In this document: positions 10,699-62,293 of the stretch, one piece after another
Position numbering within the stretch: position 1 is the first letter of the stretch
Layout: every line of letters begins with the position of its first letter
From: a virus
Length of the DNA: 64,000 nucleotides
IMG/VR virus record: IMGVR_UViG_3300031485_000046
Direction: 5' to 3' (one strand)
Program-made: the position numbers and the translations under genes
The notes under the pieces: generated by a model
Databases searched by the model: none
Told to the model about the DNA's origin: nothing
What the model saw: only the letters and a program-made list of their open reading frames with translations

Positions 10699-10699
10699 T

Positions 10700-11092: not shown

Positions 11093-11093
11093 G

Positions 11094-24121: not shown

Positions 24122-24142
24122 TAAAAAGGAGGGTAAAAGAAT

Positions 24143-24634: not shown

Positions 24635-24661
24635 TCACAAACATAAGGAGGAGTGCTGAAT

Positions 24662-25783: not shown

Positions 25784-25830
25784 AGGTTAATATCAGGCTA
25801 ATCACGCCTATATAAAGGAGGCATGTAAAA

Positions 25831-28813: not shown

Positions 28814-29526
28814 AACCGTATGTAGAATCTCCCATTATCATAACAGGTTGTCCACGAAGCGGAACTAGCATCATTTCTGGGATGTTAGAAATATGTGGTG
28901 CATTTGCAGGAACTATTCCACAGCCTACGAAACACGAAACAAGAGGCATGGGAGAGAATCGGGTTATATATGAGGATGTTGTTAAACCGTATATTCAGAG
29001 TTTGCAAGCGGATCCATCTGGACAATGGCCATTGATGGATTCTGAAAAACTGATGATTCCTATCGACTGGGAATCAATGATTTCAGACGCCTTGCACAAG
29101 GATGGCTATATGGGAGGCAAATGGCTATATAAGAGTAATACTGCGGCTCTTATGTGGAAAGTGTGGTCCTACGCCTATCCTAGCGCCAAATGGGTCCTAG
29201 TACGCAGGCGTACAGGTGACATAGTTTCTTCATGTTTGCAGACCTCGTATATGAAAGCATTCAAAAATCCTGCATATCGTAAGGAAATTGGAGCGGAAAC
29301 AGAATCAGAAGCATGGATCCATTGGGTACATAAGTATGAAGAAGCCTTTGTAGGGATGTTGACTGCGGGAGTTAATTGTAAGGTTGTCTGGCCGGAAAGA
29401 TTCGTAAGAAACGATTATCAACAGTTGTATGAAGTAATTGAATGGGTAGGGCTTGAATGGAAATCTTCTGTAGCAGATTATCTAGACCCAAAGCTATGGA
29501 AGAATGAACGGAAGGAGGAGTGCTGA
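28810..29526 (+). CDS. Sulfotransferase
   Basis: IIITGCPRSGTSIISGML (5'-PSB PAPS-binding motif) and VLVRRRTGDIVSS (3'-PB-like); ATG 28810 overlaps upstream stop (ATGA). Confidence 0.7.
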   Translation: MKPYVESPIIITGCPRSGTSIISGMLEICGAFAGTIPQPTKHETRGMGENRVIYEDVVKPYIQSLQADPSGQWPLMDSEKLMIPIDWESMISDALHKDGYMGGKWLYKSNTAALMWKVWSYAYPSAKWVLVRRRTGDIVSSCLQTSYMKAFKNPAYRKEIGAETESEAWIHWVHKYEEAFVGMLTAGVNCKVVWPERFVRNDYQQLYEVIEWVGLEWKSSVADYLDPKLWKNERKEEC

Positions 29527-29894
29527 TGGCTAGAGTAACTCCAGCGGAAGTAAAATTGATCCTTCCTGATTCTGAACTGACAGATCCTACGATCACTGCG
29601 TTTATCACCAGTGCGAATAATCTGGTAAATGCAGTGCTTACGGATTACTTGACGGAGCCGTTGCTTACCGAAGTAGAAAAATGGCTGACCGCGCACATGA
29701 TTGCTTCTACAGTTGAGAGAATGGCAACTAGGGAAGGTGCCGGCGGTGCAGAAATTTACTACACGGGTAAGTACGGACAGAATCTAACATCCACACCATA
29801 CGGCCAGATGGTGCTGTCGTTAGATCCATCAGGAAGAATGGCGGCTCTCGGTGGCAAGACTGTCACCATGATTGCCATTAAGAATTTTGATTGA
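29527..29894 (+). CDS. Putative head-tail connector/adaptor protein
   Basis: Position and size; ATG 29527 with AGGAGG RBS. Confidence 0.55.
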
Positions 29895-30277
29895 TGGTTA
29901 GCGGGCTTATCAAGTTCATAAAAAAAGTGTGTGTTCAGCCTGCCGTTTATTGGGGTGCTCCGAAGCCCGATGGATTTGGCGGAATGACATACGGCACTCC
30001 CGTAGAAATAAAATGTAGGTGGACAGATAAAGTGCAGGTAATAAAGTGGCAAAGTGCATACGTACCGACAAGTAATGAATTTATTTCTTATGCGGAAATA
30101 CTGTTGTATTATGATGTGGAGCTTCAAGGTGTGTTATGGCTTGGTTCTCTTACATCCTTGTCTACCACACAAAAAGCCGCTCCACTTACAATACCTGGCG
30201 CACGGGAAATAAAGACATTGGAACGGGTTCCTTTGTTCAGATCGTCTACGGAATTCGTAAAGAAGGTGTATCTGTAA
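29891..30277 (+). CDS. Hypothetical head-tail joining protein
   Basis: Operon position; 4-nt overlaps. Confidence 0.55.
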   Translation: MMVSGLIKFIKKVCVQPAVYWGAPKPDGFGGMTYGTPVEIKCRWTDKVQVIKWQSAYVPTSNEFISYAEILLYYDVELQGVLWLGSLTSLSTTQKAAPLTIPGAREIKTLERVPLFRSSTEFVKKVYL

Positions 30278-30771
30278 TGGCATACGCGGTATGGAATGGT
30301 TTGCCAAAAGTGATTCAAAATCTAAATGCACAGATAATGAAAATTCAGGGACGAACACTACTTGGATTGATACGTGGTGCATCAATTATCAAAGATACGA
30401 TGGATTCTATGCCTCCTGTTATACCTGTTGATACAGGAAATATGCGCCATAGTTGGTTTGTTGTCACGAACAATGGTGGTGTTCGAGCTGGAAAGAATCC
30501 TAGTTTTCTGCCGGGTCCGCATAATGATCGAGATGTTGCAAAGCTAAAGAGTGACCACGCTAAGGCGATTTCAGTATCCGCTTCTATGATTAAAGGCAAA
30601 GAACCGGCGGTAGCATTAGGTTTTTCTGCCTATTATACGATGTGGGTACATGAAAACGTAGGCGCACATTTTACAAAACCGGGTTCTGGTGCTAAGTTTT
30701 TTGAAGCAGGAATAAAAAATAGTACCAAACGAGTATTGATGGTGATACAATCGGAGGCGAAAATACGATGA
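30277..30771 (+). CDS. HK97 gp10-like neck/tail completion protein
   Basis: VDTGNMRHSW motif; ATG 30277 overlaps upstream stop (TAATG). Confidence 0.6.
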   Translation: MAYAVWNGLPKVIQNLNAQIMKIQGRTLLGLIRGASIIKDTMDSMPPVIPVDTGNMRHSWFVVTNNGGVRAGKNPSFLPGPHNDRDVAKLKSDHAKAISVSASMIKGKEPAVALGFSAYYTMWVHENVGAHFTKPGSGAKFFEAGIKNSTKRVLMVIQSEAKIR

Positions 30772-31205
30772 ATGCTCCTTCTATTGATATAAAGGATATT
30801 TTAGCGTATATTCCTCCTTCCGAATCATCTAGTGGATACGATCCTGTTAATGAGTTTGGATTAACATTCGGATCAAATTTATTTGTAGGACGAGAGCCTG
30901 CACAACCAGACGAAACAGTTACAATTTTCGACGTTGTAGGATGGGAGCCTCAGCTTACCTTTAACAAAGAAGAGATATATGAGTACCCGGCTGTTCAAGT
31001 AAGAGTTCGTTCCAGATCGTATGTCACTGGTTGGAATCTTCTTGAACAGATTGTACGGAGGTTGCACGGAATTGCTCAGGAAACATGGAATGGGACATTG
31101 TATAGTGTAGTGCGGTGTTCCAGAGCACCGATGCTCTTGGATTGGGATGAAAATGCAAGAGTGCGGTTAATTGCTAGTTTTGAAATTCAAAGGAGGAGTG
31201 CTTAA
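30768..31205 (+). CDS. Putative tail terminator/neck protein
   Basis: Position between neck genes and major tail protein. Confidence 0.55.
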   Translation: MNAPSIDIKDILAYIPPSESSSGYDPVNEFGLTFGSNLFVGREPAQPDETVTIFDVVGWEPQLTFNKEEIYEYPAVQVRVRSRSYVTGWNLLEQIVRRLHGIAQETWNGTLYSVVRCSRAPMLLDWDENARVRLIASFEIQRRSA

Positions 31206-31206
31206 T

Positions 31207-31641
31207 ATGGCAATTGCTGGTGTTGGAACAGTATTCAACCGTTGGGACCCTACAGCGGGATCGTCGGGCGGATGGAAAAGAATTGCGGAGATTAACAATA
31301 TCACTGGCCCGGGTATGTCGAGGGATACGATTGATACATCCACCCTTGATACTGAGGGCGGATATCGGACATTCATCACAGGATTCAGAAATGCAGGCAC
31401 CATGACCCTTGCGATGAATTTTACTCAGGCAACCTATCTTCAGATGAAGGCAGATTTTGAGAGTAATGATCCTGTTTCTTATCAGGTCATTCTTCCGGAT
31501 GATGAAGAAACTGTGATCGAATTCGATGGACTTGTTACTGAAATTCCGTTGACGATTCCTACGGATGACAAGATTACTGCGGATGTTACGATTCAGATCA
31601 GCGGCCCTGTTGATGTATTCAAGGGCAGTAGTGGAATGTAA
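31207..31641 (+). CDS. Major tail protein
   Basis: Position upstream of chaperone pair and tape measure; ATG 31207 with AAAGGAGG RBS. Confidence 0.7.
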   Translation: MAIAGVGTVFNRWDPTAGSSGGWKRIAEINNITGPGMSRDTIDTSTLDTEGGYRTFITGFRNAGTMTLAMNFTQATYLQMKADFESNDPVSYQVILPDDEETVIEFDGLVTEIPLTIPTDDKITADVTIQISGPVDVFKGSSGM

Positions 31642-31660
31642 TTAAGAGAGGAGCCTAATC

Positions 31661-32083
31661 ATGGCATTTTTGAACAGGGAAGAACTTCTGAAAAAAGCAC
31701 CGTTTAGGGTGGAACGAGTAGATTTTCCTAATGGGGATTTTGTGTTCGTTCGCCAAATGTCTTCTAAGATGAAAGATCAGCTAGAAAATTCGGTTCTTAG
31801 GCGTAGTATTGACAAGAACGGACAGGTACAGTTTGAACAGGATCTTTCAGGATTCAATGCAAAAGTAGCGGCACTTTCTCTTTGTGATGAAGAAGGTAAT
31901 CTGCTTCTTTCTTTGAAGGATGCAGACCTGCTTGCAGAGAACAAACCCGCAGAAATGATTGATACCATTTCTCTTAAAGCAGGTGAACTGAACGGCATTT
32001 CTGTCAATGCGAAAGAGGAAGCAGTAAAAAACTCCGAGAGCGGCACACCCGAAGATTCCTCTTCAGGTTGTGTCGAGAATTAG
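31661..32083 (+). CDS. Tail assembly chaperone (gpG-like)
   Basis: Acidic small protein directly upstream of tape measure, with overlapping -1 frame ORF. Confidence 0.7.
   Translation: MAFLNREELLKKAPFRVERVDFPNGDFVFVRQMSSKMKDQLENSVLRRSIDKNGQVQFEQDLSGFNAKVAALSLCDEEGNLLLSLKDADLLAENKPAEMIDTISLKAGELNGISVNAKEEAVKNSESGTPEDSSSGCVEN
32026..32032 (+). other. Candidate -1 programmed ribosomal frameshift slippery site A_AAA_AAC
   Basis: Heptamer in zero frame of chaperone ORF (codons GTA AAA AAC); -1 frame open from 31987 to 32433. Confidence 0.55.
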
Positions 32084-32433
32084 GATACACACACCCTAAC
32101 GATCTGCTGGAATGCCTCTCACTTGAGGAACTCCAAGAATGGGAGGCATTCGATTCCTTAGAGCCTGTGGGAAGATTAGAAGAACGAATGGAATATATGT
32201 TTGGGATGGTTTGCGCAGTTATCACAAACAATATTGCCGCCATATTCGGTAAGAAGGGTTCTAATCAGACTACAGTAACTCCAGCAGATTTCATGCCTAA
32301 ATGGGGTGTGTTCCCTGAAGAAGTAAAAAAGGAAAAACAGATACAATCTGTTGAGGAAATGAAACAAATACTGCTTTCTATGGCTAAAGTACAGAATACC
32401 AAACATCCTAGAGAAAGGAGGCGAAGAAAATAA
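32032..32433 (+). CDS. Frameshift extension of tail assembly chaperone (gpGT-like C-terminal part)
   Basis: -1 frame ORF ending at tape measure start; no independent RBS. Confidence 0.55.
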   Translation, partial: LRERHTRRFLFRLCRELGYTHPNDLLECLSLEELQEWEAFDSLEPVGRLEERMEYMFGMVCAVITNNIAAIFGKKGSNQTTVTPADFMPKWGVFPEEVKKEKQIQSVEEMKQILLSMAKVQNTKHPRERRRRK

Positions 32434-35067
32434 ATGGCGATAGGTGGTACTGCTAGTCTTGGAACACTTGTTACCACACTTGGTGTTAATTCAAAACCAC
32501 TGTTGACTGCGGAAAAGCAGGTAGCCACATTTGCTAATAGAACGAATACGTTGATGGCGTCTGTCCGTAGGACAATGATGACCGTATTCGCTACTGTTGG
32601 TGTGGGCCGTCTTGCTAAAGGATTTCTTGATGCCGCCGTATCTGTGGAAAATTACAAAGTATCTTTGAACGCCGTTATCAAGGACGCACAAAAAACGGAA
32701 GCTGTATTCCAAGACCTTTTCAAATGGGCGTCCATCAATCCTATTGATACGGATGATGCTATTAAATCATTTGTTCGTCTGAAAACAGCTGGTGTGGAAA
32801 ATACAAAAGCCGCTGTTGTCGCCGCGGCAGATGCGGCAACAGTTATGCAGAAACCTGTTGAATACGTAGCAAATGCGATGGTTTCTACGAATAATAAGAT
32901 GCTTCGGCAGATAGGTGTACAGCTTGACCGTACAGGTAAAACAGCTATTATCCGAAGTGGTAAAGTACGAATTGAAGTTGAAAAAGATATAGACAAGATC
33001 CGTCAAGGCATTATCGAGGTTCTTCAAAAGAATTTCGGTGGTGCGATGGATGCTTTCAAAAATACCTGGAGAGGTTCTCTGAATACCATGAAAGGTCTTT
33101 GGTGGACTTTCATGGCGGAAGTTATGGGAACAAACAATTCAGGAGGTCCTTATGAAACATTGGTCAAAGGGATAAACAGGGTTCGGGATGCTTGGATAGA
33201 ATGGAGAGAAACTACGGATTATACAGAATTTGTAGCAAATACCCAAGCAGTATTTTCAGCCATGATTGATGGGATGATAAAGGGTATTGAGATGTTAGTA
33301 AAAGGGTTTAAGTGGTTGCTTGATAATCTAGAGATGGTAAAAACAGCGATTATTGTACTTGCAAGTGCGAGAGTGATGGGGCTTCTTATCCGTTCCTTTG
33401 CTCTCCTTCGTACTGAATTAATTGCAGGAAGTGCAGCCACTTCGTTATTTATGAAGGCGATATATGCGCTCAGGCTTGCATTTCTTGAACTACGCACGGC
33501 AAATACAATTTTAGGAGGGCTAAAAGGGGCACTTGCCGCTTTGGGGCTAGGGCCGGGTGGTTTGTTAATCGGAGCAATCGGTGGTTTGGTACTCCTTGCG
33601 GAAAATTTGAAACCTCCGTTCCAAGTTGCGTATGATGAGATTCGCAGATTCAAGCAGGAATTACGCACCATCCCTGTAGACAAGATTAAGGAGATTGTTG
33701 ATCTTAGTTATTCCATGGGTGGGTTTGGGATGGGGGGAAATTATAAAGCCTCCATAGCGCAAGCAGTACAAAATGAAACAGGTAGAACATTGGCTGAAAT
33801 AAAAACACAAGCTGGTAAAATGAAAGCTATGTGGAATTACATGAAGCAAAAAGGGTATGGGGATAAGATATATGTAGAGCCAGAAACAACAGATCAACCT
33901 AGTATGGGCGGCGGTGAATCTAAGTATAAAAAACTCATCCAGCAAATGAAGGATGAGGCAAAATATCTTGGTGCAAACGTACAAGCCTTTCTTCCTATAC
34001 TGGATCAATGGGCATCTAAGATGAAACCTCTTTCTGAGGATTGGAAGCTGATTAAAGATTATGCTGTGGAAATAAGAACAGGAATGGCTAAAGAAGCTGG
34101 GAAAGAAGCCGCTGATACAATGAAACGGCTGGAAGAGCAAATAAAATTGCAAAAGGAAGCGAGAGAAGCGGCGGAACAAGGAGTAGAAAAGTTCTGGAGC
34201 ACCGCGGCTAATGGATTTTCGCAAGGACTTATTAAAGGTCAAGAGTATTTCCAGATGCTCACAAATGAATTTGAAAAATTGAAAGAAGCGGTAAATGCAG
34301 AAGCCGGTGGGTTTTTGAATATGGAAGATATATTCAATTGGACTGAACCGATGTGGACTATATTTTCTGAATTGCAGAGTGTGGGAGGACATCTTGCTAA
34401 TCTTGACCTTACTAGGCTCAACGAGCAGTTGGAAAAAGGGGTTCTTTCTCAAAAAGAGTGGAATGCGGCCGTACAGGAATTACTCGACAAATACTCCGCG
34501 CTTCCTTCTGTCGTGGAACAAGTAAACAACGCTCAGCAAAACACAAAGAAGACCTCCGACGAGTTCGGAATAAGCGCAAAACTCTGGGCGAACGACCTCT
34601 CACAAGGACTTGCACAAGCCATTGTCAACGCCGAAGACCTGGGTGACGCGCTGCGGAATATTGCCAAGTCCATAGCAGGGAGTTTTTTACAAAAGCTCAT
34701 CGGTGGATGGATCGGCGGTTTATTCGCCGACGGCGCGGCCTTTCAAGGCGGGAGCGTCATCCCGTTCGCAAAAGGTGGTATCGTGGGCCGCCCGACAATC
34801 TTCCCTATGGCTCGCGGCATGGGCTTGATGGGGGAAGCTGGCCCGGAGGCGGTCATGCCGTTGACACGGACAGCAGGGGGCGAGCTTGGCGTTAAGGCAG
34901 AGGGTAACGGCAGCGGCGAGATGAATATCACCATGAATATCAACGCCGTTGATAGCCGCTCCTTCGTGGAGATGATGCGGTCGAACAGGGCGAGCGTTGA
35001 AAGCATCGTTGTGGAAAATATTATGAAAAACGGGGCTGTTAGGAGTGCTATGAGGGGGATGGCGTAA
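32434..35067 (+). CDS. Tail tape measure protein
   Basis: 877 codons, hydrophobic segments, position after chaperone pair. Confidence 0.9.
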   Translation: MAIGGTASLGTLVTTLGVNSKPLLTAEKQVATFANRTNTLMASVRRTMMTVFATVGVGRLAKGFLDAAVSVENYKVSLNAVIKDAQKTEAVFQDLFKWASINPIDTDDAIKSFVRLKTAGVENTKAAVVAAADAATVMQKPVEYVANAMVSTNNKMLRQIGVQLDRTGKTAIIRSGKVRIEVEKDIDKIRQGIIEVLQKNFGGAMDAFKNTWRGSLNTMKGLWWTFMAEVMGTNNSGGPYETLVKGINRVRDAWIEWRETTDYTEFVANTQAVFSAMIDGMIKGIEMLVKGFKWLLDNLEMVKTAIIVLASARVMGLLIRSFALLRTELIAGSAATSLFMKAIYALRLAFLELRTANTILGGLKGALAALGLGPGGLLIGAIGGLVLLAENLKPPFQVAYDEIRRFKQELRTIPVDKIKEIVDLSYSMGGFGMGGNYKASIAQAVQNETGRTLAEIKTQAGKMKAMWNYMKQKGYGDKIYVEPETTDQPSMGGGESKYKKLIQQMKDEAKYLGANVQAFLPILDQWASKMKPLSEDWKLIKDYAVEIRTGMAKEAGKEAADTMKRLEEQIKLQKEAREAAEQGVEKFWSTAANGFSQGLIKGQEYFQMLTNEFEKLKEAVNAEAGGFLNMEDIFNWTEPMWTIFSELQSVGGHLANLDLTRLNEQLEKGVLSQKEWNAAVQELLDKYSALPSVVEQVNNAQQNTKKTSDEFGISAKLWANDLSQGLAQAIVNAEDLGDALRNIAKSIAGSFLQKLIGGWIGGLFADGAAFQGGSVIPFAKGGIVGRPTIFPMARGMGLMGEAGPEAVMPLTRTAGGELGVKAEGNGSGEMNITMNINAVDSRSFVEMMRSNRASVESIVVENIMKNGAVRSAMRGMA

Positions 35068-35399
35068 TGGCAGAGACATTTTCCTATTCGCCTCTCTATG
35101 CGTATCAAAGAGGATTAAATCATAATGTCCTGATAACGGAGTTTGAATCAGGAAAAGAGCAACGTAAGTATTTAGGAGTTCGTGCTAGGACGTGGACACT
35201 CGGATTCCGAGCCGACGTTGCTACCATCCAGGGAATCGAGGATTTCTACAATGCCCGTGGTGGTAATTACGAGGCGTTCAACTGGACACCTCCGGGAGGA
35301 AGCGCCATTTCCGTCCGGTTTGAGGAAGGGAGCCTGTCGGTCAGTTATTACGGCTCTCAGTACGGCGAATGTGAAGTCACATTGAGGGAGATATTATGA
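35067..35399 (+). CDS. Minor tail protein M-like (lambda gpM family)
   Basis: GGNYEAFNWTPP resembles lambda gpM GGWKSFLWTPP (recalled); TAATG coupling to tape measure. Confidence 0.75.
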   Translation: MAETFSYSPLYAYQRGLNHNVLITEFESGKEQRKYLGVRARTWTLGFRADVATIQGIEDFYNARGGNYEAFNWTPPGGSAISVRFEEGSLSVSYYGSQYGECEVTLREIL

Positions 35400-35938
35400 G
35401 CAGGGCAGGAGCGGCATATATAGCAGAATCGGCGAATGACGAACTGAAGCCTATCCTGCTGGTGCGTGCGCTGGATATTCCACAGGTGCTCAATCCTTCG
35501 GTCAAGGTCAGTCTGTATTTGACCAATGCGCAAACGGACATATCCTTTTTTGACGAGAATGATAACACCCAATTGTACACTGCATGCGCCCTGTCCTATG
35601 ACCAGGTGCAGGCGTCCACGGATAATGAGATCGGCACGGTAAACGTGCGGCTGGACAACGTATCAGGGACGTTTACCAGCCTTGCGAAGGACTACCTTTT
35701 ACGCGGCGTGAGAATGCATCTGCTGGAGGCGTTCCAGGATACGTTATTGTCTCCTGCCGGGGCGCGGTGGATATTCCAGGGACATCTCGAAAAAGCGATT
35801 ATAGGGATGTCAGCCATCGAGGTGATGGTCAAGGCGGATTTTTCTCTTTCGACGCGGGTTCCTCGCAGGCTCTACTGGGTGAAGGACTTCCCGCATCTCC
35901 CGTCTGCGAAAGACCCGCGGACGCTGGCGCTGAAATGA
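35396..35938 (+). CDS. Minor tail protein L-like
   Basis: Position in M-L-K-J order. Confidence 0.6.
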   Translation: MSRAGAAYIAESANDELKPILLVRALDIPQVLNPSVKVSLYLTNAQTDISFFDENDNTQLYTACALSYDQVQASTDNEIGTVNVRLDNVSGTFTSLAKDYLLRGVRMHLLEAFQDTLLSPAGARWIFQGHLEKAIIGMSAIEVMVKADFSLSTRVPRRLYWVKDFPHLPSAKDPRTLALK

Positions 35939-36321
35939 TCGGTATTCCGTGGAAGACGAAAGGGCGGGACCGGGACGGGATTGACTGCGTCGGTCTAGCC
36001 CTTCTCGCGCAAAAGGAGCTGTACGGGCGGGAGTATGACTTCCCATTTGACTACGACCCGGAGACGGGGGATGAGCGCGTTTTGCTCGACTGGCTGGAAG
36101 ACATAGCTGATGAAGTGGACATACCGCAGAATGGAGACCTGGTGATTTATCGGATGCCGGGAATTGACGGGATTGTAAAACATCACATCGGTACGGTCGT
36201 TGGCGAGGCATTGTTGCACATTTATCCGGGGAAGAGTTCTCGGAAGGTGAAAATCAGGATGAAACGGATCTACAAAATCTACCGGGCGAAGGAGGTGGAG
36301 ACATGCCGGGAGCGGCAATAG
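35935..36321 (+). CDS. Tail assembly protein K-like (NlpC/P60 peptidase fold)
   Basis: GIDCVGLALL (Cys) and HHIG (His) motifs; start at internal ATG 35935. Confidence 0.7.
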   Translation: MIGIPWKTKGRDRDGIDCVGLALLAQKELYGREYDFPFDYDPETGDERVLLDWLEDIADEVDIPQNGDLVIYRMPGIDGIVKHHIGTVVGEALLHIYPGKSSRKVKIRMKRIYKIYRAKEVETCRERQ

Positions 36322-39300
36322 GGGCGCTGTTAGGATTTGCCTTGTCAGGAACTGGGCTTGGGATAGGACTTGCAGGATTCCTTGGCGTTTCAGCCGGTAC
36401 CCTCTGGATGGTTGGGGCCTCCCTCGGTTCGTTGTTCGACGGACCGGATATCGACCTTGGAGGTTCGACGCCTAATTACACATTCGGACAGCTGTCGAAT
36501 ACGAAGAGCCAAATGCTCCCCATCCCCATCGTATACGGGCGGTGCAGGGTCGGCGGGAATGTGTTCATGCAGACGTTTTACGACGATACCTTGCAGAAAA
36601 TGGATATGCTGGTCGGTGTTTCCGAAGGGCCAATCCAGTCCATAAAATCCATTTACGCCAGCGACACGGAACTGACGGATGTAAACGGTGATATTACCCA
36701 CGAATTGGAAGAGGTGACGCTGAACGTCCACCTCGGTGAACCAGGCCAGGTTGCTGACAGCCGAGACCCCAGCGGGAGCACATATGCGAATGTGGCTTAT
36801 GTGGGGCTGACGCTGAAGGCGCAGGACGGGCTATCAGGCAACCCTACCATATCGTCCATAGTGGAAGGGCGGAAGATATGGACGCCTGCTGGTACGATGT
36901 TTTCAAGGAACCCAGCGTGGATCGTCTATGACTTCCTGACCAATACCCGCTACGGCGTCGGCATTCCAACAGACCTGATCGACCTCGACTCATTCATGGC
37001 GTCCGCCGACTATTGTGACGCTCTGGTTGAGGGTGAACCTCGTTTCACACTGGATTATATCATCGACACTCAGCGACCGGCGGTGGACCATCTGCAATCC
37101 ATGCTGGCTTGTTTTAGAGGGTATTTCCTCGCCCGGGACAAGATCGAATTGCACGTGGAGCAGGCCGGGAGTGTGTACAAGGCCCTTGGGCCGGATAATT
37201 TCGTGAAGGACAGCTTCACCTGGTGGCAGAAGAGCGGCGACGATTCACCGAACAGAATCACCCTGGAGTGGATCGACCCGGACAACCATTACGAGCAGTC
37301 CTCGGCTGTGTTTGAGTATCAGGAGGATATGCAGGCTCGTGGTGTTTTTGAAAAATCATTCTCCGTGCTCGGAGTAACCCGCTCGTCCCAGGTAGGTCGG
37401 TTGGGTAATTACCTGATGGAAACAGCAAAGCGGGTACAGAATTTCTGCTCGTTCCAGGTGGGACTCCAAGATGCCGACATCGAGGCAGGGGAAATCATAT
37501 CCCTGACATATCCCGATTTTACGGGGTGGGATTCGAAACCCTTCCGGGTTGTGGCGGTGCAGGACCACGGTGATTCGGGTTTAGTTACAATCACCTGTGC
37601 GGAATATGATGCGACGGTATACGGTGATGATGCGCTGCCTGTGCAGACACCCATAGTAGACCCGACGCCCGTTACCTATGACGATGTGTACTCCCTCGCT
37701 CTTGAGGATATGGGGCATATCGCCGATGACGGGACATGGTTCCCGGTAATTCGTGCTACGTGGCAGAACCCGTCCGACTACACGCCCGCTGCACTTAACA
37801 TCCGCTGGCGATATAGCGGCGATACGGTATGGAACCTGCATCTGAACACGTCCCGGCTGACCACGCAGACCAACATTACCGGGCTGACTACCGGAGAGGA
37901 TCTGGAAGTTTGGGTTAATTGCGTTAAGCCAAATAATGGCAGGGAGACAACCGGGGCGACGGCAACGCTGTCCGTAGGACGGGATGTTACCCCTCCGGCG
38001 GCCCCAACTTCCCTTACTGCAACGGGATGGTTTGGAAGCATTAATCTGGAATGGGTGAATCCTGCTGACAGGGACCTTAGTCATATCGAGGTATGGGAAA
38101 ATGCCATTGATAACAGGGCAACCGCAGTAAAAATTGCCGAGACAAAAGGGACATCATACCAGCGGTATGTAGGGTCGTTCATTACTCGTTACTACTGGGT
38201 GCGGGCGGTTGATTTCTCAGGCAACGTGGGCGCATGGAACGCTACGGCAGGCACGGCTGGCAACTCTGACCAGAAGAACCATCAGGATTTTGTAGATTTG
38301 GTGCTACAGGAAAATCCGTATCTCGCAGAAGTACAGACAGACCTCAACTCAGCGATAGTTTTAGGCGACACAAACATTAAGACAATTGACCTGCCTGGCT
38401 ATGAGCAGAGGATAGCCAACCGCATTGATGAGGTCAACGATGACATAATGACGCAGGTCAACACGTATGCTGACGGAACTATCGATGCGATGCTTGACGC
38501 TTCCGAAGCAATAAGTGCAGTAAGAGATGCGGGGATTATTACCGATCCTGTTACGGGATTGACAAGCATTTTCGCCCTTGATGCATACAAGACAGCAAAT
38601 GACGCAAGAGTATCAAACGTTGAGATTGACCTTGATGCAGTCGAATCCACTCTTACATCTAAGGTCACTCTGGCACAGGTGGACGAGCGGATCGCAGGGG
38701 CTGTCTTCGGCGATGCAGGGGAATTGCTCCTGTCCGGCGTGGATGCACGGGTGTCGCTGGTAGAGGAGACCCTTGACGGTGTTGAGGCCGAACTTCTCGA
38801 AAAGGCAACATACGTGGAGGTGAACGAACTCGGCGGGCGAATCGGCACAGCAGAGTCAAGGTTAGACGGTCATGATGCGGAGATTGCCATGCTTGCCACG
38901 TCACAGGAACTTGACGAGGTAGAGAGCCGTGTGACAACGGCAGAGCTTAATATCGATGCCCTTGAAGGATCAATTGTCAATAAGGTTGCCAGCACGGTAA
39001 CGATTACACAAGACCAAGAGGAGCTAATAGCACAGGGCCTGGTTGATGCGATGCTAAACGACCGTGAGGCACAGACCGATGCTAAGGCAAAAACGCAGAG
39101 TGCATTAGCAATAGCGGAGTCTGAACTGTACGCCCATGTCAATGATGAGATGGAAGCAGAGGCGGGGCAGAGATTGTTGTTGGCGGCGAAAGTTGACAAT
39201 AATCAAGCGACTATCCAGAGTGAGTCTGTCGCACGAGCAAATGCTGATTCCGCCATAGCCTCTAATGTATCAACATTGTCAACCACCGTAGGGAACAACA

Positions 39301-39773
39301 CATCAGCGATACAGACAATTGACAGTTCAGTAGACGGGATTCAATCAAAACACGCCGTTAAAATCGATACAAACGGATATGTCACAGGCTATGAACTTAT
39401 CGGCACAGGCGCATCAAGCTCCATGGTGTTCCACGTTGATAATTTCCTAGTCGGCAAGCCGGGTACAACCAACAAATATCCGTTTGTAATCGGCACGGTA
39501 GACGGTGTATCGCGGGTTTCTATGGACTCGGCGTTTATACAGGATGCGGCAATCGAGAATGTGAAGATTGCAAATGCAACAATAACAAGGTTAAAAATTG
39601 AAGGACACACTCTGACTGAGGTCGCATCGTATTACGTTGCAGCAGCGAAGGATATGTTAGAGGACGCAACGTGGACTTACTACACGGATATCGACCAAAT
39701 AACAATTACAACAGAAGCGGGTTATCCAGCACCGATAACGTGGACGGCAGTGCTCAATACAGGAGCAGGGTGA
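36303..39773 (+). CDS. Host specificity/tip attachment protein J-like, with glycine-rich hydrophobic N-terminal segment
   Basis: NPAWIVYDFLTNTRYGVGIP region resembles lambda gpJ NNMAWCLWDMLTHPRYGMG (recalled); 1156 codons; RBS AAGGAGGTGGAG. Confidence 0.85.
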   Translation: MPGAAIGALLGFALSGTGLGIGLAGFLGVSAGTLWMVGASLGSLFDGPDIDLGGSTPNYTFGQLSNTKSQMLPIPIVYGRCRVGGNVFMQTFYDDTLQKMDMLVGVSEGPIQSIKSIYASDTELTDVNGDITHELEEVTLNVHLGEPGQVADSRDPSGSTYANVAYVGLTLKAQDGLSGNPTISSIVEGRKIWTPAGTMFSRNPAWIVYDFLTNTRYGVGIPTDLIDLDSFMASADYCDALVEGEPRFTLDYIIDTQRPAVDHLQSMLACFRGYFLARDKIELHVEQAGSVYKALGPDNFVKDSFTWWQKSGDDSPNRITLEWIDPDNHYEQSSAVFEYQEDMQARGVFEKSFSVLGVTRSSQVGRLGNYLMETAKRVQNFCSFQVGLQDADIEAGEIISLTYPDFTGWDSKPFRVVAVQDHGDSGLVTITCAEYDATVYGDDALPVQTPIVDPTPVTYDDVYSLALEDMGHIADDGTWFPVIRATWQNPSDYTPAALNIRWRYSGDTVWNLHLNTSRLTTQTNITGLTTGEDLEVWVNCVKPNNGRETTGATATLSVGRDVTPPAAPTSLTATGWFGSINLEWVNPADRDLSHIEVWENAIDNRATAVKIAETKGTSYQRYVGSFITRYYWVRAVDFSGNVGAWNATAGTAGNSDQKNHQDFVDLVLQENPYLAEVQTDLNSAIVLGDTNIKTIDLPGYEQRIANRIDEVNDDIMTQVNTYADGTIDAMLDASEAISAVRDAGIITDPVTGLTSIFALDAYKTANDARVSNVEIDLDAVESTLTSKVTLAQVDERIAGAVFGDAGELLLSGVDARVSLVEETLDGVEAELLEKATYVEVNELGGRIGTAESRLDGHDAEIAMLATSQELDEVESRVTTAELNIDALEGSIVNKVASTVTITQDQEELIAQGLVDAMLNDREAQTDAKAKTQSALAIAESELYAHVNDEMEAEAGQRLLLAAKVDNNQATIQSESVARANADSAIASNVSTLSTTVGNNTSAIQTIDSSVDGIQSKHAVKIDTNGYVTGYELIGTGASSSMVFHVDNFLVGKPGTTNKYPFVIGTVDGVSRVSMDSAFIQDAAIENVKIANATITRLKIEGHTLTEVASYYVAAAKDMLEDATWTYYTDIDQITITTEAGYPAPITWTAVLNTGAG

Positions 39774-39794
39774 AACGTTACTTTCGGGGCAAGG

Positions 39795-40004
39795 TTGCTC
39801 CGTAACGGTGTAGTAATCAACACAAGGGACGCTTTTTATTACTCTTTATATCAAGGGATGTCTCCGGTTGTTTTTAGTTTTGTTGATACAGGGGCATCGA
39901 CAGGATCAACTACTTATAAGATACAGGTTAAGCGGGTTCGGTCTCTGGACTGTCATGTTTCGGCATCGGAGAGGACGATGGTGGTTCATTATGCCTACAG
40001 ATAG
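39795..40004 (+). CDS. Hypothetical small protein
   Basis: TTG start, weak RBS. Confidence 0.3.
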   Translation: MLRNGVVINTRDAFYYSLYQGMSPVVFSFVDTGASTGSTTYKIQVKRVRSLDCHVSASERTMVVHYAYR

Positions 40005-40350
40005 GGGAACATGGTTTACGTATTATTCTCAAAACGGGGAGATTTACGGGAGCTATTCAAATACACGCGAGAACATGCTGATTGACCTAGCTGACAAGTC
40101 ATACATCGAAGCACCCGACAATGACATTGACATCAGCAATAAATATGTAGACAACGGAGAAGTTAAAATCAGACCTAACATGAACCTTGCCATTATTGGA
40201 GGGGTAATCACGGGCATACCGCAGGGCGCAACGGTCACACTGGGCGAGCAGTCTTTTACTGTCGATGATGGGGAAGCTGACATCGAGGGATATACAGGGA
40301 TAGTTAAAATAACATGCTGGCCCTATCTTGATGCGGAGGTGACGCTATGA
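39991..40350 (+). CDS. Hypothetical protein
   Basis: Internal ATG 39991 overlapping upstream stop. Confidence 0.5.
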   Translation: MPTDRGTWFTYYSQNGEIYGSYSNTRENMLIDLADKSYIEAPDNDIDISNKYVDNGEVKIRPNMNLAIIGGVITGIPQGATVTLGEQSFTVDDGEADIEGYTGIVKITCWPYLDAEVTL

Positions 40351-40541
40351 AAATAAACTACAAGCCGACCTCTGCGGAGGTGCGGAAAAAACGCAAAGAG
40401 GACTATCTGCAACGCTTCCCGGTTGAACGGCAGTTGGAAGCCCTCACGGAAGCGGCATCGGGCAGACCGGAAAAACTGAATGAACTCATGCAGGGCCTCG
40501 CTGAAATACGCAGGGCCTTGCCATTTGCGAAGGAGGAATGA
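40347..40541 (+). CDS. Hypothetical small protein
   Basis: ATGA coupling. Confidence 0.5.
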   Translation: MKINYKPTSAEVRKKRKEDYLQRFPVERQLEALTEAASGRPEKLNELMQGLAEIRRALPFAKEE

Positions 40542-41947
40542 ATTTGAGCTGGTATAGAACAGGTACCGTAGCCGTAACAAACGGAAGTAAGACAGTCACA
40601 GGAGTAGGTACGTTGTGGACAACGGCAGTCAATGCTGGTGACGCTTTCGCCCTTGTTGACGCAAATCTAAACCCGACTGATGCATGGTATGAGGTGGAGT
40701 CCGTCACGAACAATACGACTCTGGTGCTGAAGCAGAGTTACGCCGGGACAACCGGGAGCAATAATCAATATTGTGTATTTAACATGGTCGGCAACATGAC
40801 CACGCCGTCATTTGCTCAGAGGTTGGCTACGTTCTTCGCATCCTTCCAGAGTTTGATCGACAAGCCGACGACCACACCTACGGCATCCAGCATCCCGGTT
40901 GCGGACTCCGGCGGGAAAATCGCCGACGGATGGGTTCCTGACACTATAGCACGTCTCGCCTCACCAGCACTCACTGGCTCCCCCACAGCCCCCACGCAGT
41001 CAGCGAGCGATGATAGCACGAAGATTGCCACGACTGCGTTTGTGAAGGATCAGGTGGCATCGGAGACTGTTGCCGGAATGGTTGAACTCGCCACGTCAGC
41101 AGAGGTTTTAGCAGGGGAGGATACAGAAAGGGCGGTAACACCTGCGGGCTTAAAAGCGGGATTAGAAGCATCTTACGCTATCTTTGACTCTGACCGCATT
41201 TATGATGGCGTGAACCTCGAAACCAAGTTTGCCGCTGAGATAGCGGGATATACAGATGTTTGGGCATGGATAAAGGCACGTATTGCAGCAGGAGATTACA
41301 GTGGTCTGCATGTCGGTGATTACGTCCAGTTTACGGTAGGGTCTGATACGGTTCAAGCTCAGATTGCAGGAATGGATACGTATTATAGGACTGGAGACTC
41401 CCCACTCGGTCACCACATTGATTTTATCTCTAGGGATTGCCTGACGGCAACATATCAATGGAATACAACAGGCAACAACAACGGCAACTCATCTAATCCA
41501 TCTCCGTGGATGGTGTCTGCACTCAAAGCAAGCCTTGACGGACTTGTAACAAGCCTCCCAGCGGGGTTGCAGTCTGTTGTGGTTACAAAACGAGCATTTA
41601 TTGAAACACGATATACAAGTGGGTCAACGTTGATTGACTCGACATCGTGGGCTTGGAACAACATGGGCAAGTTGTGGGTTCCGTCTGAGTTCGAGGTTTT
41701 TGGCACTATAGTTTGGGGGACACGTGGATACAGTAATAACGGCGGGGTGCAGTATCCTATTTTTGGGAACTCATGGAAAAACAGGATGAAAGGCGCAGGG
41801 CATAACGGGGAGCGCACCGTCTGGTGGTTGTCTTCCGTCTATAGTGGCAATTCTGAGTCATGTTGCAATGTCGGCAACGGCGGGATTATCGGCCGCAGTA
41901 ACGCATCCGACGCTTATAGGGTGCCGCTCTGCTTCCGAATATCGTAG
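40538..41947 (+). CDS. Side tail fibre protein
   Basis: SDDSTKIATTAFVKDQV motif typical of tail fibres; RBS AGGAGG. Confidence 0.8.
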   Translation: MNLSWYRTGTVAVTNGSKTVTGVGTLWTTAVNAGDAFALVDANLNPTDAWYEVESVTNNTTLVLKQSYAGTTGSNNQYCVFNMVGNMTTPSFAQRLATFFASFQSLIDKPTTTPTASSIPVADSGGKIADGWVPDTIARLASPALTGSPTAPTQSASDDSTKIATTAFVKDQVASETVAGMVELATSAEVLAGEDTERAVTPAGLKAGLEASYAIFDSDRIYDGVNLETKFAAEIAGYTDVWAWIKARIAAGDYSGLHVGDYVQFTVGSDTVQAQIAGMDTYYRTGDSPLGHHIDFISRDCLTATYQWNTTGNNNGNSSNPSPWMVSALKASLDGLVTSLPAGLQSVVVTKRAFIETRYTSGSTLIDSTSWAWNNMGKLWVPSEFEVFGTIVWGTRGYSNNGGVQYPIFGNSWKNRMKGAGHNGERTVWWLSSVYSGNSESCCNVGNGGIIGRSNASDAYRVPLCFRIS

Positions 41948-41953
41948 GAGGTG

Positions 41954-42478
41954 ATGGATATGAACGACATGGAGTACAACAATGCTGTACAGATACTGCG
42001 ACAAACGGATTATGTCGCGCTGAAGCTCGCAGAGGGCGCAGACCCTCTCGAATATGCCGAGGTCTTAAAACTCCGTCAATCGTGCCGAGATAAAATTAAC
42101 GATTGGAACGGAGAAGATTTCATCGCACCGACATTTGAGGATTTGAGAAACAGAAAATATCGGGAAATCTCACAGGCCCACAAGGAGCATGTGGCAGGAA
42201 GCATCATGACATCCCTCGGCTTCCCCATGCAGTTCGACATGAAGGACAATCTCATGGTGGAAGGAACCATAAAACTGGCACAGGCAAGCGGAGCAACTAC
42301 AATTTACCTGACTGACGCAGAGGATGTCACTCATTACGACATCCCTCTTGCAGACGCACAGGCCGTGTTGCTTGAGATGAGTACTGCATTTGCACAGGCT
42401 CATGCTAAAAAACAGACGCTTCGGGAGCGGACAGCAGAAGCACAGACCCAGAGCGATCTGGACAAGATAAGCTGGTAG
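41954..42478 (+). CDS. Tail fibre assembly protein (Tfa-like)
   Basis: Position immediately after tail fibre; RBS AGGAGGTG; start ambiguous (41954 or 41960). Confidence 0.6.
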   Translation: MDMNDMEYNNAVQILRQTDYVALKLAEGADPLEYAEVLKLRQSCRDKINDWNGEDFIAPTFEDLRNRKYREISQAHKEHVAGSIMTSLGFPMQFDMKDNLMVEGTIKLAQASGATTIYLTDAEDVTHYDIPLADAQAVLLEMSTAFAQAHAKKQTLRERTAEAQTQSDLDKISW

Positions 42479-42490
42479 GAGGGGGATCGT

Positions 42491-42577
42491 GTGGTAGTGA
42501 TTCAGTGTCAGGATTTCTGGCCGATTGTTCTTGGCGGTGCGATCATCTTTATATTGGTGATGATGCTAAGGAGGTGA
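42491..42577 (+). CDS. Very small hydrophobic ORF (28 aa) upstream of endolysin
   Basis: GTG 5 nt after GGAGGGGG; single predicted TM segment. Confidence 0.25.
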   Translation: MVVIQCQDFWPIVLGGAIIFILVMMLRR

Positions 42578-42581
42578 AAAA

Positions 42582-43930: not shown

Positions 43931-44581
43931 TTATTCTGCTACAAGAATTTCTGCAAGAGATTCATCTAGTTTATATACCGCGTCCCATAACGCATTACAA
44001 AAATCATTGAATTCCTTCATAGCGGGAGGGTTCCCTCTAAGTTTGTAAATATGTCGCCATTCTCGCATATTACCTGTAACAAGCATTTTTGTTGGAGTAC
44101 ATTCAGGCAATAGGTATTTAGCTGTATCATTCCCGTGCTTTTCTTGAATCTTTTTTACAAGCTGGGTTCCTTTATACAACCAATCCAATACTTCTGCATC
44201 TTGTTCAATAGCTTCAGGAAGTATGAACCCAATAGGATTCTTAATGATGGATTTAAGTGACCATCGTGTGCTTTGTACGGAAAAGGAAAGCAACCTATGC
44301 CGTGCAAATTGCTGAAGAAGAGCCCTAGAGATGTTAGAAACTTCCACGACGAGGACAATGTGTTCTATCACACTTTCATGACCGTCTTTGATTCGTTTAA
44401 GGACATACTGTTTTGCTGTTTCCGTATCATACCCATCTTCTTTCCAGAATACAATTAGGTCTTCATACTCATCAGTTATTGCAGGAAAAGCCTCTTGATT
44501 CACACAAATCTTAGATCCATGTAAAGCGTTTTGCAAAACAGTGGCATCTAACACTTTTACAGTCACAGGAAACTCTCTCAT
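43931..44581 (-). CDS. thyX: Flavin-dependent thymidylate synthase ThyX
   Basis: RHRLLSFSVQS matches ThyX RHR(x7)S motif; start at ATG 44579-44581 with AGAGGAG RBS. Confidence 0.85.
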   Translation of the reverse strand: MREFPVTVKVLDATVLQNALHGSKICVNQEAFPAITDEYEDLIVFWKEDGYDTETAKQYVLKRIKDGHESVIEHIVLVVEVSNISRALLQQFARHRLLSFSVQSTRWSLKSIIKNPIGFILPEAIEQDAEVLDWLYKGTQLVKKIQEKHGNDTAKYLLPECTPTKMLVTGNMREWRHIYKLRGNPPAMKEFNDFCNALWDAVYKLDESLAEILVAE

Positions 44582-44749
44582 AAAATCATCACTCCTCTTA
44601 CGTAAATACATACGTATCCTTGGCGAATCCTTGCGTCAGGATCGCATTCTTTTAGAAAAGAGATATAGAATCATGTCTAAACTGTTTTTTATTGCAGGAA
44701 AGCGTATTATCCGTCAGAATGACGTGTGCCCATCCTGCGATGTTAAATC

Positions 44750-45265
44750 CTAATAAGCACCCGACGTAAAACAGGAAGAAGCTATGCATATCAAATCTCC
44801 TATTGTTCCAGAGTTTTCTATAATATGGTCAAAACAGAATCCATCTAATTCCGTTTCTGACGGATGATTCTTCTGTTCTTCTGTAAGACCATTATCATAG
44901 TTAGGACGTTCGATACGAACCGTAATCACTTTGTATCCATTCTTTTTTCCCCATTGTCGCATAATCTGGATCTCATTCAAATACCGGCAGTCTGTTATTG
45001 CTATTTGATTTGGATAACTGTTAGTCTCCAGCATGCGACAGACAAGATTCACCCAAGTATCTCGATTATATTCCCTTACGGTAGAAGCAAGATCCTGTAG
45101 AAATTTACGACCTCGTTCATCTTTGTGCCCATTCCAACCCAACTTGATAGCAAAATCCTTAAGCCGACCAGCAAAGGAATATTTATTGTACCCATCTAAT
45201 CCTAACGCAAATGTATCTTTACCGGCTCTAGCTTTACCAGATATAAGAATGATCGTTTTATTCAT
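44750..45265 (-). CDS. Deoxynucleoside monophosphate kinase (P-loop)
   Basis: ISGKARAGKDT P-loop; size and context. Confidence 0.75.
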   Translation of the reverse strand: MNKTIILISGKARAGKDTFALGLDGYNKYSFAGRLKDFAIKLGWNGHKDERGRKFLQDLASTVREYNRDTWVNLVCRMLETNSYPNQIAITDCRYLNEIQIMRQWGKKNGYKVITVRIERPNYDNGLTEEQKNHPSETELDGFCFDHIIENSGTIGDLICIASSCFTSGAY

Positions 45266-62292: not shown

Positions 62293-62293
62293 C

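What the first reader, a model, noticed from the sequence alone, without database searches (positions are those of the whole stretch)
34400..42480. Tail-tip and fibre module appears GC-richer than the rest of the genome (mosaic acquisition)
From the C-terminal part of the tape measure gene through gpM/L/K/J-like genes to the tail fibre and its assembly protein, the sequence is visibly richer in G and C than the replication, head and modification genes. The shift seems to begin inside the tape measure gene. This suggests the host-recognition module was acquired from a higher-GC lambda-like phage.
Basis: seen in the sequence. Interest (0 to 1): 0.5.

Follow-up and report, generated by a model that had tools for sequence, protein, structure and literature searches.

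The report
GC-rich tail-tip module swapped into phage
An 8.1-kb block of this uncultured phage's genome, the end of its tail ruler gene plus the tail-tip and fibre genes that choose the host, is much richer in G+C than the rest because it was recombined in from a different, GC-rich group of phages; this is a clean but ordinary case of phage mosaicism.

Summary
Maximum-likelihood segmentation places the GC-rich block at 34465-42541, with GC 0.518 against 0.405 elsewhere. The shift lies mostly at third codon positions (about 0.36 rising to 0.56-0.68) and starts inside the tape-measure gene near nt 34440.

- **Module relatives.** The closest relatives of the module (up to 87% nt, 94% aa for J) lie on uncultured contigs that are GC 0.54-0.60 throughout. 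These contigs share nothing detectable with the window's head and tail-tube genes.
- **Backbone relatives.** The wider backbone family (GC 0.28-0.45) has flat GC and different tail tips.
- **Close siblings.** These carry other alleles of the GC-rich block, joined at three different left breakpoints: TMP aa ~670, TMP aa ~780, and the M|L gene boundary. Two siblings lose similarity to the window at the same right-hand point, about 20 nt before the endolysin start codon.
- **Native version.** One sibling keeps a low-GC TMP C-terminus and gpM homologue. The event was therefore replacement of a homologous module, not gain of a new kind of tail tip.

Only gpM, gpJ and, more weakly, gpK are demonstrably lambda-family. 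The "gpL" is positional only. Donor and host identities are unknown; there are weak hints of Synergistota. Novelty is low: a new member of a known kind.

The parts
32434..34439 (+). Tape-measure gene, native low-GC part (aa 1 to about 669)
   Evidence: GC3 is 0.29-0.41. It is 94-96% nt identical to siblings L018/L096, L097 and L099, and 85.6% to L205. GC-rich contigs give no DNA match here.
34440..35067 (+). Tape-measure gene, recombinant GC-rich C-terminal part (aa about 670-877); the left junction lies here
   Evidence: Identity to the GC-rich contig L005 jumps to about 0.8 at 34440. GC3 rises to 0.64-0.68 from 34534. Siblings L097/L099 diverge from the window at exactly 34461. The protein alignment shows the window and L096 carrying L005-type sequence where L099, L097 and L205 carry a low-GC native type.
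35067..35399 (+). gpM-like minor tail protein (110 aa)
   Evidence: Pfam PF05939 Phage_min_tail scores 40.5 bits against a cut-off of 39. It also matches PHROG 14. It is 90-93% aa identical to L001/L204 and 70% to the low-GC copy in L205.
35396..35938 (+). 180-aa minor tail protein in the gpL position
   Evidence: It matches PHROG 396 'minor tail protein' at E = 2e-5. It has no Pfam hit, no PDB hit and no similarity to lambda gpL by hhalign. It is 81-94% aa identical to the GC-rich contigs.
35935..36321 (+). gpK-like protein (128 aa), NlpC/P60-type domain only
   Evidence: It matches PHROG 329 at E = 6e-10. hhalign gives 84% probability to lambda gpK aa 119-180. Weak PDB profile hits are all NlpC/P60 peptidases, and a Cys and a His are invariant in the alignment.
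36303..39773 (+). gpJ-like central tail fibre (1156 aa) with a gpI-like N-terminal segment
   Evidence: Pfam PF13550 and PF09327 both score above their cut-offs. PHROG 31 'central tail fiber J' matches at E = 3e-95 and PHROG 32 'tail assembly protein' at aa 54-96. PDB hits include the F2-pyocin fibre, lambda gpJ 8iyk_J, and a tail assembly protein (25vf_9) for aa 8-93. Up to nt 38323 it is 86.5% nt identical to L001; beyond that the similarity is patchy. L204 matches through to 39569.
39991..40350 (+). 119-aa protein of unknown role
   Evidence: The gene call comes from the source contig record. It matches PHROG 18216, a family of unknown function. It is 43-67% aa identical to the GC-rich contigs.
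40347..40541 (+). 64-aa protein of unknown role
   Evidence: The gene is called. It is 60-79% aa identical in the GC-rich contigs and in L205.
40544..41947 (+). Side tail fibre (467 aa): conserved N-terminal anchor and a different C-terminal domain
   Evidence: It hits several PHROG tail-fibre families, and its C-terminus matches Pfam DUF6273. The N-terminal 170 aa are 85-91% identical to L001/L204, but homology stops near nt 41047. The C-terminal part is only 39-44% aa identical to L201/L202, which are GC 0.58.
41960..42478 (+). 172-aa protein in the fibre-chaperone position (function inferred from position only)
   Evidence: It matches PHROG 3811, of unknown function. Its C-terminal 125 aa are 76% aa / 81% nt identical to L226, and the similarity continues into the intergenic stretch 42482-42577.
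42479..42581 (.). Intergenic spacer holding the right junction (about 42561-42563)
   Evidence: Siblings L229 (97% nt) and L232 (96% nt) match the window only from 42561 and 42563 onward, and have unrelated DNA upstream. GC falls to 0.39 from the endolysin gene (42582) onward.

Best explanation
The block from about 34440 to about 42562 is a recombinant host-recognition module. It comprises the tape-measure C-terminus, the gpM-like gene, the L-position gene, the gpK-like gene, gpI/J, two small genes, the side fibre and the putative chaperone. The window's lineage belongs to a low-GC (about 0.40) family of uncultured siphophages with their own replication and DNA-modification genes. This lineage, together with its nearest siblings, already had a lambda-type tail tip. 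Recombination with GC-rich (0.54-0.60) siphophages carrying a homologous tail tip replaced the native alleles. The crossover on the left fell in a conserved stretch of the tape-measure C-terminal domain; the one on the right fell just upstream of the endolysin gene. The block travels as a unit because its products assemble together: the tape-measure C-terminus sits inside the tip complex built from M, L, K/I and J (established for lambda; inferred here). The likely selected effect is a change of receptor specificity (inferred, not tested). Shown here are the compositional discontinuity, the discordant relatedness on either side of both junctions, and the different alleles and breakpoints in siblings. 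Inferred are the direction of transfer, the recombination mechanism and the phenotype.
For: (1) Composition. GC is 0.518 against 0.405, the change is mostly in GC3, and the tetranucleotide signature is foreign to the backbone.

(2) Relatives of the module. Nearly all are GC-rich along their whole length, including up to 10 kb upstream of J (L204). In these contigs the module and its own flanks share a tetranucleotide signature (r = 0.81-0.85). Their DNA similarity to the window starts only at 34417-34723. They have no tblastn hit to the window's portal, capsid, tube or chaperone genes.

(3) Relatives of the backbone. About 35 loci with tube identity of 49-70% aa and 5-10 kb downstream have flat GC (mostly 0.28-0.45) and no hit to any tail-tip gene of the window. 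Some instead have two large ORFs without Pfam matches. Others have a different set of small ORFs.

(4) Siblings with discordant identity. L099 is 94.6% nt identical up to 34461 and 84% beyond 34774. L205 is 85.6% over 26297-34406 but 0.68 in L-K-J, where the window groups with L001/L204 at 0.87.

(5) Three left breakpoints, seen from GC3 along the aligned tape-measure proteins.

(6) Right edge. Two siblings lose similarity to the window at 42561-42563.

(7) Substitution bias. Polarised substitutions on the window branch are 66 GC-to-AT against 8 AT-to-GC, compared with 53:23 on the L001 branch (Fisher p = 0.004). This fits drift toward the backbone's composition.

(8) Not an assembly artefact. 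The tape-measure ORF is intact across the junction, at 877 aa against 875 aa in L205. Independent assemblies also span a low-to-high GC junction (L018, L097, L099, L205).
Against: No sampled contig is a near-identical donor (best 86-87% nt), so the actual donor and the date of the event are unknown. The fibre C-terminus and most of the last gene have no close relative, so their origin is inferred from composition alone. The AT-biased substitution signal is modest, parsimony polarisation inflates GC-to-AT counts, and the replicate on L205 showed no bias. Direction of transfer is partly a matter of definition, since a recombinant has two parents. Low-GC lysis genes also turn up next to GC-rich DNA in L229 and L230, so traffic may run both ways. 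Siblings are short fragments; none covers both junctions.
Confidence: 0.85

Rival explanations
1. Metagenome assembly chimera: two co-occurring phages were mis-joined at the conserved tape-measure C-terminus.
For: The window is identical to a single short-read Logan contig over 32582-52968. The junction lies in a stretch conserved between the two phage pools, which is the kind of place where assemblers mis-join. L229 and L230 look like odd joins.
Against: A chimera would need two mis-joins that return to the same backbone after 8.1 kb. All ORFs are intact and colinear across both junctions. Assemblies from other samples (L018/L096, L097, L099, L205) independently span low-to-high GC junctions on the same backbone. 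L018 spans the window's own junction.
Confidence: 0.03
2. Vertical inheritance with intrinsic compositional heterogeneity: tail-tip genes of this family are GC-rich for reasons of amino-acid content, expression or local mutation bias.
For: The capsid region also shows a smaller GC bump (0.49 at 24-25 kb; also present in L021). Lambda itself has arms of different GC (own knowledge).
Against: The change is in GC3, not in GC1 or GC2. About 35 backbone relatives show no rise downstream of the tube gene. Sibling L205 has low-GC tape-measure C-terminus and M homologues. Identity between siblings drops abruptly at the junctions.
Confidence: 0.04
3. Reverse polarity: a GC-rich phage kept its own tail tip and acquired nearly everything else from a low-GC phage. 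Alternatively, the GC-rich contigs L001 and L204 obtained their tip from the window's clade.
For: A recombinant has two parents, and composition alone cannot name the 'recipient'. The window/L001/L204 alleles are somewhat less GC-rich (0.53-0.55) than the other GC-rich alleles (0.57-0.58). Low-GC lysis genes occur in GC-rich contexts.
Against: 87% of the window is low-GC backbone. The module's tetranucleotide signature matches its flanks in GC-rich contigs and mismatches them in the window. Native low-GC versions of the tape-measure C-terminus and M survive in siblings. The substitution bias on the window branch is toward AT.
Confidence: 0.08

Closest known systems
Tail-tip gene cluster of phage lambda (H C-terminus, M, L, K, I, J, stf, tfa)
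   Same: The position directly after the tape-measure gene is the same, and so is the gene order. A gpM-family protein is present (Pfam PF05939). A gpJ-family central fibre is present (PF13550, PF09327, PHROG 31, PDB 8iyk_J). There is an NlpC/P60-type K-like protein, a gpI-like segment, then a side fibre and a small gene in the chaperone position.
   Different: Only 25-28% aa identity to J proteins of cultured phages. The L-position protein shows no similarity to lambda gpL and has a single cysteine, whereas lambda gpL binds an iron-sulfur cluster through cysteines (own knowledge). The K-like protein is 128 aa against 199 aa for lambda gpK; the hhalign match covers only gpK's C-terminal part, aa 119-180. 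The gpI-like segment is fused to the N-terminus of J rather than being a separate gene. Two extra small genes lie between J and the fibre.
Modular (mosaic) evolution of tailed phages: exchange of tail-fibre and host-range modules, as described for lambdoid phages (HK97/HK022/N15) and many others (own knowledge; mosaicism of a lambda-like phage is discussed in PMC9303873)
   Same: Sharp transitions in relatedness at or near gene boundaries. The host-recognition genes move as a block. There is further patchwork inside the J C-terminus and the fibre C-terminus.
   Different: The exchange here crosses a gap of 12-18 points of GC, which makes the block visible by eye. One junction is inside a gene, at a domain boundary of the tape-measure protein. 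Siblings document three left breakpoints and one right-hand point shared by two of them.
Compositionally atypical horizontally acquired DNA and its amelioration (Lawrence and Ochman concept, own knowledge)
   Same: Atypical GC3 and oligonucleotide signature. There is an excess of GC-to-AT changes on the recipient branch.
   Different: This is a phage genome, where composition need not track the host. Siphophages can differ from their host by 26 points of GC (PMC9303873). The amelioration signal is modest and was not reproduced in L205.

Membership tests
Lambda-type tail-tip module (M-L-K-I-J) | gpM-family minor tail protein encoded directly after the tape-measure gene | tested here: met
   35067-35399 matches Pfam PF05939 at 40.5 bits (cut-off 39) and PHROG 14.
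Lambda-type tail-tip module (M-L-K-I-J) | gpL-family protein (Pfam Phage_tail_L; iron-sulfur cysteines in lambda gpL, from own knowledge) | tested here: not met
   35396-35938 has no Pfam hit. hhalign against lambda gpL gives 0.5% probability. There is no PDB hit. The only match is PHROG 396 'minor tail protein' at E = 2e-5. The protein has one cysteine. The structure model was unusable (pLDDT 37).
Lambda-type tail-tip module (M-L-K-I-J) | gpK-family protein with an NlpC/P60 domain (lambda gpK is annotated as a C40 peptidase) | tested here: inconclusive
   hhalign gives 84% probability to lambda gpK aa 119-180. It matches PHROG 329 at E = 6e-10. PDB profile hits to NlpC/P60 enzymes reach only E = 0.01-0.05. 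There is no Pfam hit. The N-terminal half of gpK has no counterpart.
Lambda-type tail-tip module (M-L-K-I-J) | gpI-type tail assembly protein | tested here: inconclusive
   There is no separate gene. J aa 8-93 match a tail assembly protein of F2 pyocin (25vf_9, E = 1e-4), and aa 54-96 match PHROG 32 (E = 1e-5).
Lambda-type tail-tip module (M-L-K-I-J) | gpJ-family central tail fibre | tested here: met
   PF13550 scores 51 bits (cut-off 23) and PF09327 29.7 bits (cut-off 22). PHROG 31 matches at E = 3e-95. Lambda gpJ 8iyk_J matches at E = 6e-13.
Horizontally exchanged (mosaic) module | Composition differs from the rest of the genome at synonymous sites and in oligonucleotide signature | tested here: met
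Horizontally exchanged (mosaic) module | Relatives of the backbone lack the block or carry another allele | tested here: met
   Searches cover the wider family. Searches cover the siblings.
Horizontally exchanged (mosaic) module | Relatives of the block sit in genomes of matching composition and unrelated backbone | tested here: met
Horizontally exchanged (mosaic) module | Discordant relatedness between the block and the backbone | tested here: met
   The test used identity matrices and a neighbour-joining tree only. Window to L205 is 85.6% in the backbone against 0.68 in the module. Window to L001/L204 is 0.87 in the module, with no detectable similarity in the backbone. No model-based phylogeny was run.
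Horizontally exchanged (mosaic) module | Physical continuity of the junctions (not an assembly artefact) | not testable with these tools
   Reads are not available. Indirect support comes from intact ORFs and from independent assemblies that span similar junctions.

The most novel reading that the evidence does not exclude
The tail-tip block behaves as a recurrently exchanged cassette between two compositionally distinct pools of uncultured siphophages (GC about 0.40 and about 0.58). These pools probably meet in the same hosts, possibly Synergistota of anaerobic digesters. The exchange uses preferred crossover zones: several in the tape-measure C-terminus and at the M|L boundary, and one fixed point at the endolysin ribosome-binding site. 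Traffic may run both ways, since low-GC lysis genes appear in GC-rich contexts. If so, phage GC content in this system would be decoupled from the host, and the junctions would mark a natural 'plug-in' design for host-range modules.
Probability: 0.4. Interest if true: 0.4.

Novelty: new member of a known kind. Interest (0 to 1): 0.25.

Why it matters
It gives a well-delimited natural example of a host-recognition module moving between phage lineages of very different base composition. The junctions are mapped to a few tens of bases, and several independent alleles and breakpoints are seen in siblings. That is useful in three ways. It shows where natural recombination cuts, at tape-measure aa ~670 or ~780, the M|L boundary, and just before the endolysin gene, which can guide engineered tail-tip swaps. 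It warns against GC-based or k-mer-based host prediction and binning for such phages. It also describes an abundant but uncultured phage family. It does not change any general concept: modular exchange of tail genes is textbook knowledge.

Tried and rejected
- **DNA searches of cultured phages.** megablast and blastn of the module and the structural region against 50,697 phage records found nothing useful.
- **Protein searches of cultured phages.** tblastn gave only 25-36% aa matches, so no cultured lineage can be named for either part.
- **Close relatives of the endolysin, fibre and last gene in IMG/VR.** The endolysin reached at most about 50% aa identity. The fibre C-terminus reached only 39-44% aa, and the last gene had one partial relative, L226.
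- **Exact-protein look-ups.** These returned only the source contig.
- **Structure prediction of the L-position protein.** The single-sequence model had pLDDT 37, so no fold search was run.
- **Replicate amelioration test on L205.** It showed no AT bias, and my first choice of outgroup was unsuitable because L004 and L005 are sisters.
- **tRNA genes.** None were found that could offset the codon mismatch.
- **Promoter and terminator scans.** These showed nothing above chance at either junction.
- **Terminal repeat.** None was found in the window.

Full report
**Observation**

The window has a mean GC of 0.419. All eight 1-kb bins between 34001 and 42000 are 0.47-0.55, while bins outside average 0.405 (sd 0.034, maximum 0.491; Mann-Whitney p = 6e-6). 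No other 8-kb window exceeds 0.446. A free two-breakpoint likelihood search gives 34465-42541 (log-likelihood gain 183).

The difference lies mainly at third codon positions. Backbone genes have GC3 of 0.29-0.48. The tail-tip genes have 0.49-0.68, and GC1 and GC2 are almost unchanged. Inside the tape-measure gene (32434-35067), GC3 is 0.29-0.41 up to 34533 and 0.64-0.68 afterwards.

Mononucleotide-normalised tetranucleotide usage correlates at r = 0.79-0.90 among three backbone segments, but only 0.36-0.47 between the block and those segments.

**What the genes are**

The genes following the tape-measure gene are:
- a gpM-family protein (Pfam PF05939, above its cut-off);
- a 180-aa 'minor tail protein' (PHROG 396 only);
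- a 128-aa K-like protein;
- a 1156-aa J-family central fibre (PF13550, PF09327, PHROG 31);
- two small genes;
- a 467-aa fibre with a DUF6273 C-terminus;
- a 172-aa gene in the chaperone position.

J also matches lambda gpJ and the F2-pyocin fibre among solved structures. Its first ~95 residues match a gpI-like tail assembly protein. The K-like protein aligns with the C-terminal NlpC/P60 part of lambda gpK (hhalign probability 84%; weak NlpC/P60 hits). The L-position protein shows no similarity to lambda gpL, and a single-sequence structure model was unusable.

So the architecture is lambda-like. Family membership is shown for M and J, is partial for K and I, and is not shown for L. The endolysin (Peptidase_M15_3) begins at 42582, and GC is back to 0.39 there.

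**Relatives of the block**

Cultured phages give no DNA match and only 25-28% aa identity for J. In IMG/VR, fifteen contigs encode J relatives at 52-78% overall aa identity. A genome scan added MAG contigs, including L204, which is 94% aa identical in the J N-terminal part.

These contigs are GC 0.54-0.60 over their whole length, including up to 10 kb upstream of J. The exceptions are L011 at 0.49 and the distant prophage L210 at 0.38. Their DNA similarity to the window begins only at 34417-34723 and runs to about 38323, or to 39569 for L204, with further patches up to about 41047.

At protein level they share the TMP C-terminus and the M, L, K and J genes at 65-94%. They have no hit at all to the window's portal, capsid, tube or chaperone genes. 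They carry at least two different capsid and tail-tube families. In them, the module and its own flanks share an oligonucleotide signature (r = 0.81-0.85).

**Relatives of the backbone**

The capsid and tube proteins have hundreds of uncultured relatives. About 35 loci with 5-10 kb downstream of the tube gene have flat GC, almost all between 0.28 and 0.45, and no similarity to any tail-tip gene of the window. Some have two large ORFs without Pfam matches after the tape-measure gene. Others (L058, L071) have a different set of small ORFs. The GC-rich block is therefore specific to the window's immediate clade.

**Siblings and junctions**

- **L018/L096** (95-96% nt) runs through the window's junction.
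- **L097 and L099** are 94.6% identical to the window up to exactly 34461. They are unalignable to 34774, and L099 is then only 84% identical, also with GC-rich DNA.
- **L205** is 85.6% identical over 26297-34406, then differs.

GC3 along the aligned tape-measure proteins shows three different switch points. The window and L096 switch at about aa 670. L097 and L099 switch at about aa 780. L205 does not switch within the gene at all. In L205 the whole tape-measure gene (GC3 0.41) and the gpM homologue (GC3 0.38) are low-GC, and the jump is at the M|L boundary.

In the L-K-J region the window groups with L001 and L204 (0.87 nt identity) and is only 0.68 identical to L205. L205's J C-terminal part and fibre region are 83-87% identical to L004 and L005.

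Fine-scale identity profiles show further patches at 34260-34900. In this stretch even L096 drops to about 0.85, while L101 rises to 0.95-0.98.

On the right, a metagenome scan with the endolysin found four informative contigs:
- L229 is 97% identical to the window from 42561 onward.
- L232 is 96% identical from 42563 onward. Unrelated DNA lies upstream in both: GC-rich in L229 and low-GC in L232.
- L231 shares the end of the last module gene.
- L230 loses similarity after 43718.

The last gene's C-terminal part and the spacer up to 42577 also occur in L226.

The exchangeable unit is therefore about 34440 to 42562. Its right-hand end is the same in two siblings, while three left-hand switch points are seen.

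**Interpretation**

The data support recombinational replacement of a homologous, originally low-GC tail-tip module by alleles from GC-rich siphophages. This happened more than once in this clade. Low-GC versions of the TMP C-terminus and M survive in L205, L097/L099 and L021. A fully low-GC but distant version of the whole module occurs in a 156-kb Synergistaceae MAG contig (L210).

Crossovers fall in conserved stretches of the tape-measure C-terminal domain. This makes structural sense, because in lambda that part of the protein sits within the tip complex (own knowledge). The functional consequence, a change of receptor specificity, is inferred.

A polarised substitution count gives 66 GC-to-AT against 8 AT-to-GC changes on the window branch, and 53:23 on the L001 branch (p = 0.004). 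This is consistent with drift toward the backbone's composition. The test is crude, and a replicate on L205 showed no bias.

**Rivals**

- **Assembly chimera.** This would need two compensating mis-joins. It is contradicted by independent assemblies that span similar junctions and by intact ORFs.
- **Intrinsic GC heterogeneity with vertical descent.** This is contradicted by the flat profiles of the family and by L205's low-GC homologues.
- **Reverse polarity.** This is partly a matter of wording, but it is disfavoured by the oligonucleotide signatures and by the surviving native alleles.

**Hosts**

Four of the eight best genome hits are contigs binned to Synergistales or Synergistaceae. Most of these are short contigs, and binning is weak evidence. 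Others are binned to Mariniphaga, Spirochaetota and Latescibacterota.

A GC-rich donor does not imply a GC-rich host. Cultured siphophages can differ from their host by 26 points of GC (PMC9303873). Low-GC lysis genes also lie next to GC-rich DNA in L229 and L230, which suggests that the two pools meet in the same cells.

**Verdict**

This is a clear and well-mapped example of modular exchange of host-recognition genes. It is conceptually ordinary: a new member of a known kind.

Noticed in passing
window 55511-57355 (- strand): The family A DNA polymerase gene carries an intein-like insertion (Pfam Intein_splicing and PT-HINT at aa 188-307), and the DNA_pol_A match is split into three stretches.
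   Followed up: no
window 61597-62436, 46440-47090, 18890-19684, 43931-45265: There is a set of nucleotide-metabolism and possible DNA-modification genes. These are QueC, a Vut_1 queuosine-precursor transporter homologue, a CTP_transf_3 cytidylyltransferase, ThyX, a dNMP kinase and a dUTPase. Together they suggest 7-deazaguanine-type or other DNA modification.
   Followed up: no
window 16019-16118 and 16155-16261: Two direct copies of about 100 nt (88% identical) lie in the most AT-rich part of the window (14-18 kb, GC 0.30-0.35). They could be origin-like or regulatory repeats.
   Followed up: no
window 27575-28813: A 412-aa protein with a methyltransferase domain (Methyltransf_23) sits inside the head/tail structural gene block. 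It is 95-98% conserved in siblings.
   Followed up: no
window 24001-25800; L021 1-1500: The major capsid gene region shows a smaller GC bump (0.49; GC3 0.47-0.48). This bump is also present in the relative L021, so it looks like a family property rather than a transfer.
   Followed up: partly
L229 1-3688 and L230 1213-4933: The window's low-GC lysis cassette (endolysin and the two following genes, 94-97% nt) lies next to GC-rich DNA in two short metagenome contigs. In L229 the neighbouring GC-rich DNA encodes lysis-region genes of the GC-rich phage pool on the other strand, including a candidate second endolysin (my reading of the sequence, not scanned). This is either reverse traffic between the pools or assembly chimeras.
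   Followed up: partly
L210 (Synergistaceae MAG contig JAVVWB010000003.1, 156 kb), locus positions 5900-13700: A distant (26-50% aa), fully low-GC (0.38) version of the whole TMP-M-L-K-J module lies in a long bacterial contig. It is a probable prophage and the only host hint that rests on a long contig.
   Followed up: partly
window 38323-39773 and 41048-41947: The C-terminal third of J and the C-terminal two-thirds of the side fibre are themselves patchworks. L001 loses continuous similarity at 38323, while L204 continues to 39569. No GC-rich contig matches the fibre beyond about 41047.
   Followed up: partly
window 1-64000: The window matches Logan contig SRR34859213_1977 (60,630 bp) at 100% over the fetched 20.4 kb (32582-52968). 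However, the window is longer than that contig and has no terminal repeat, so the genome is larger than 64 kb or the window comes from another assembly. There are no tRNA genes.
   Followed up: no
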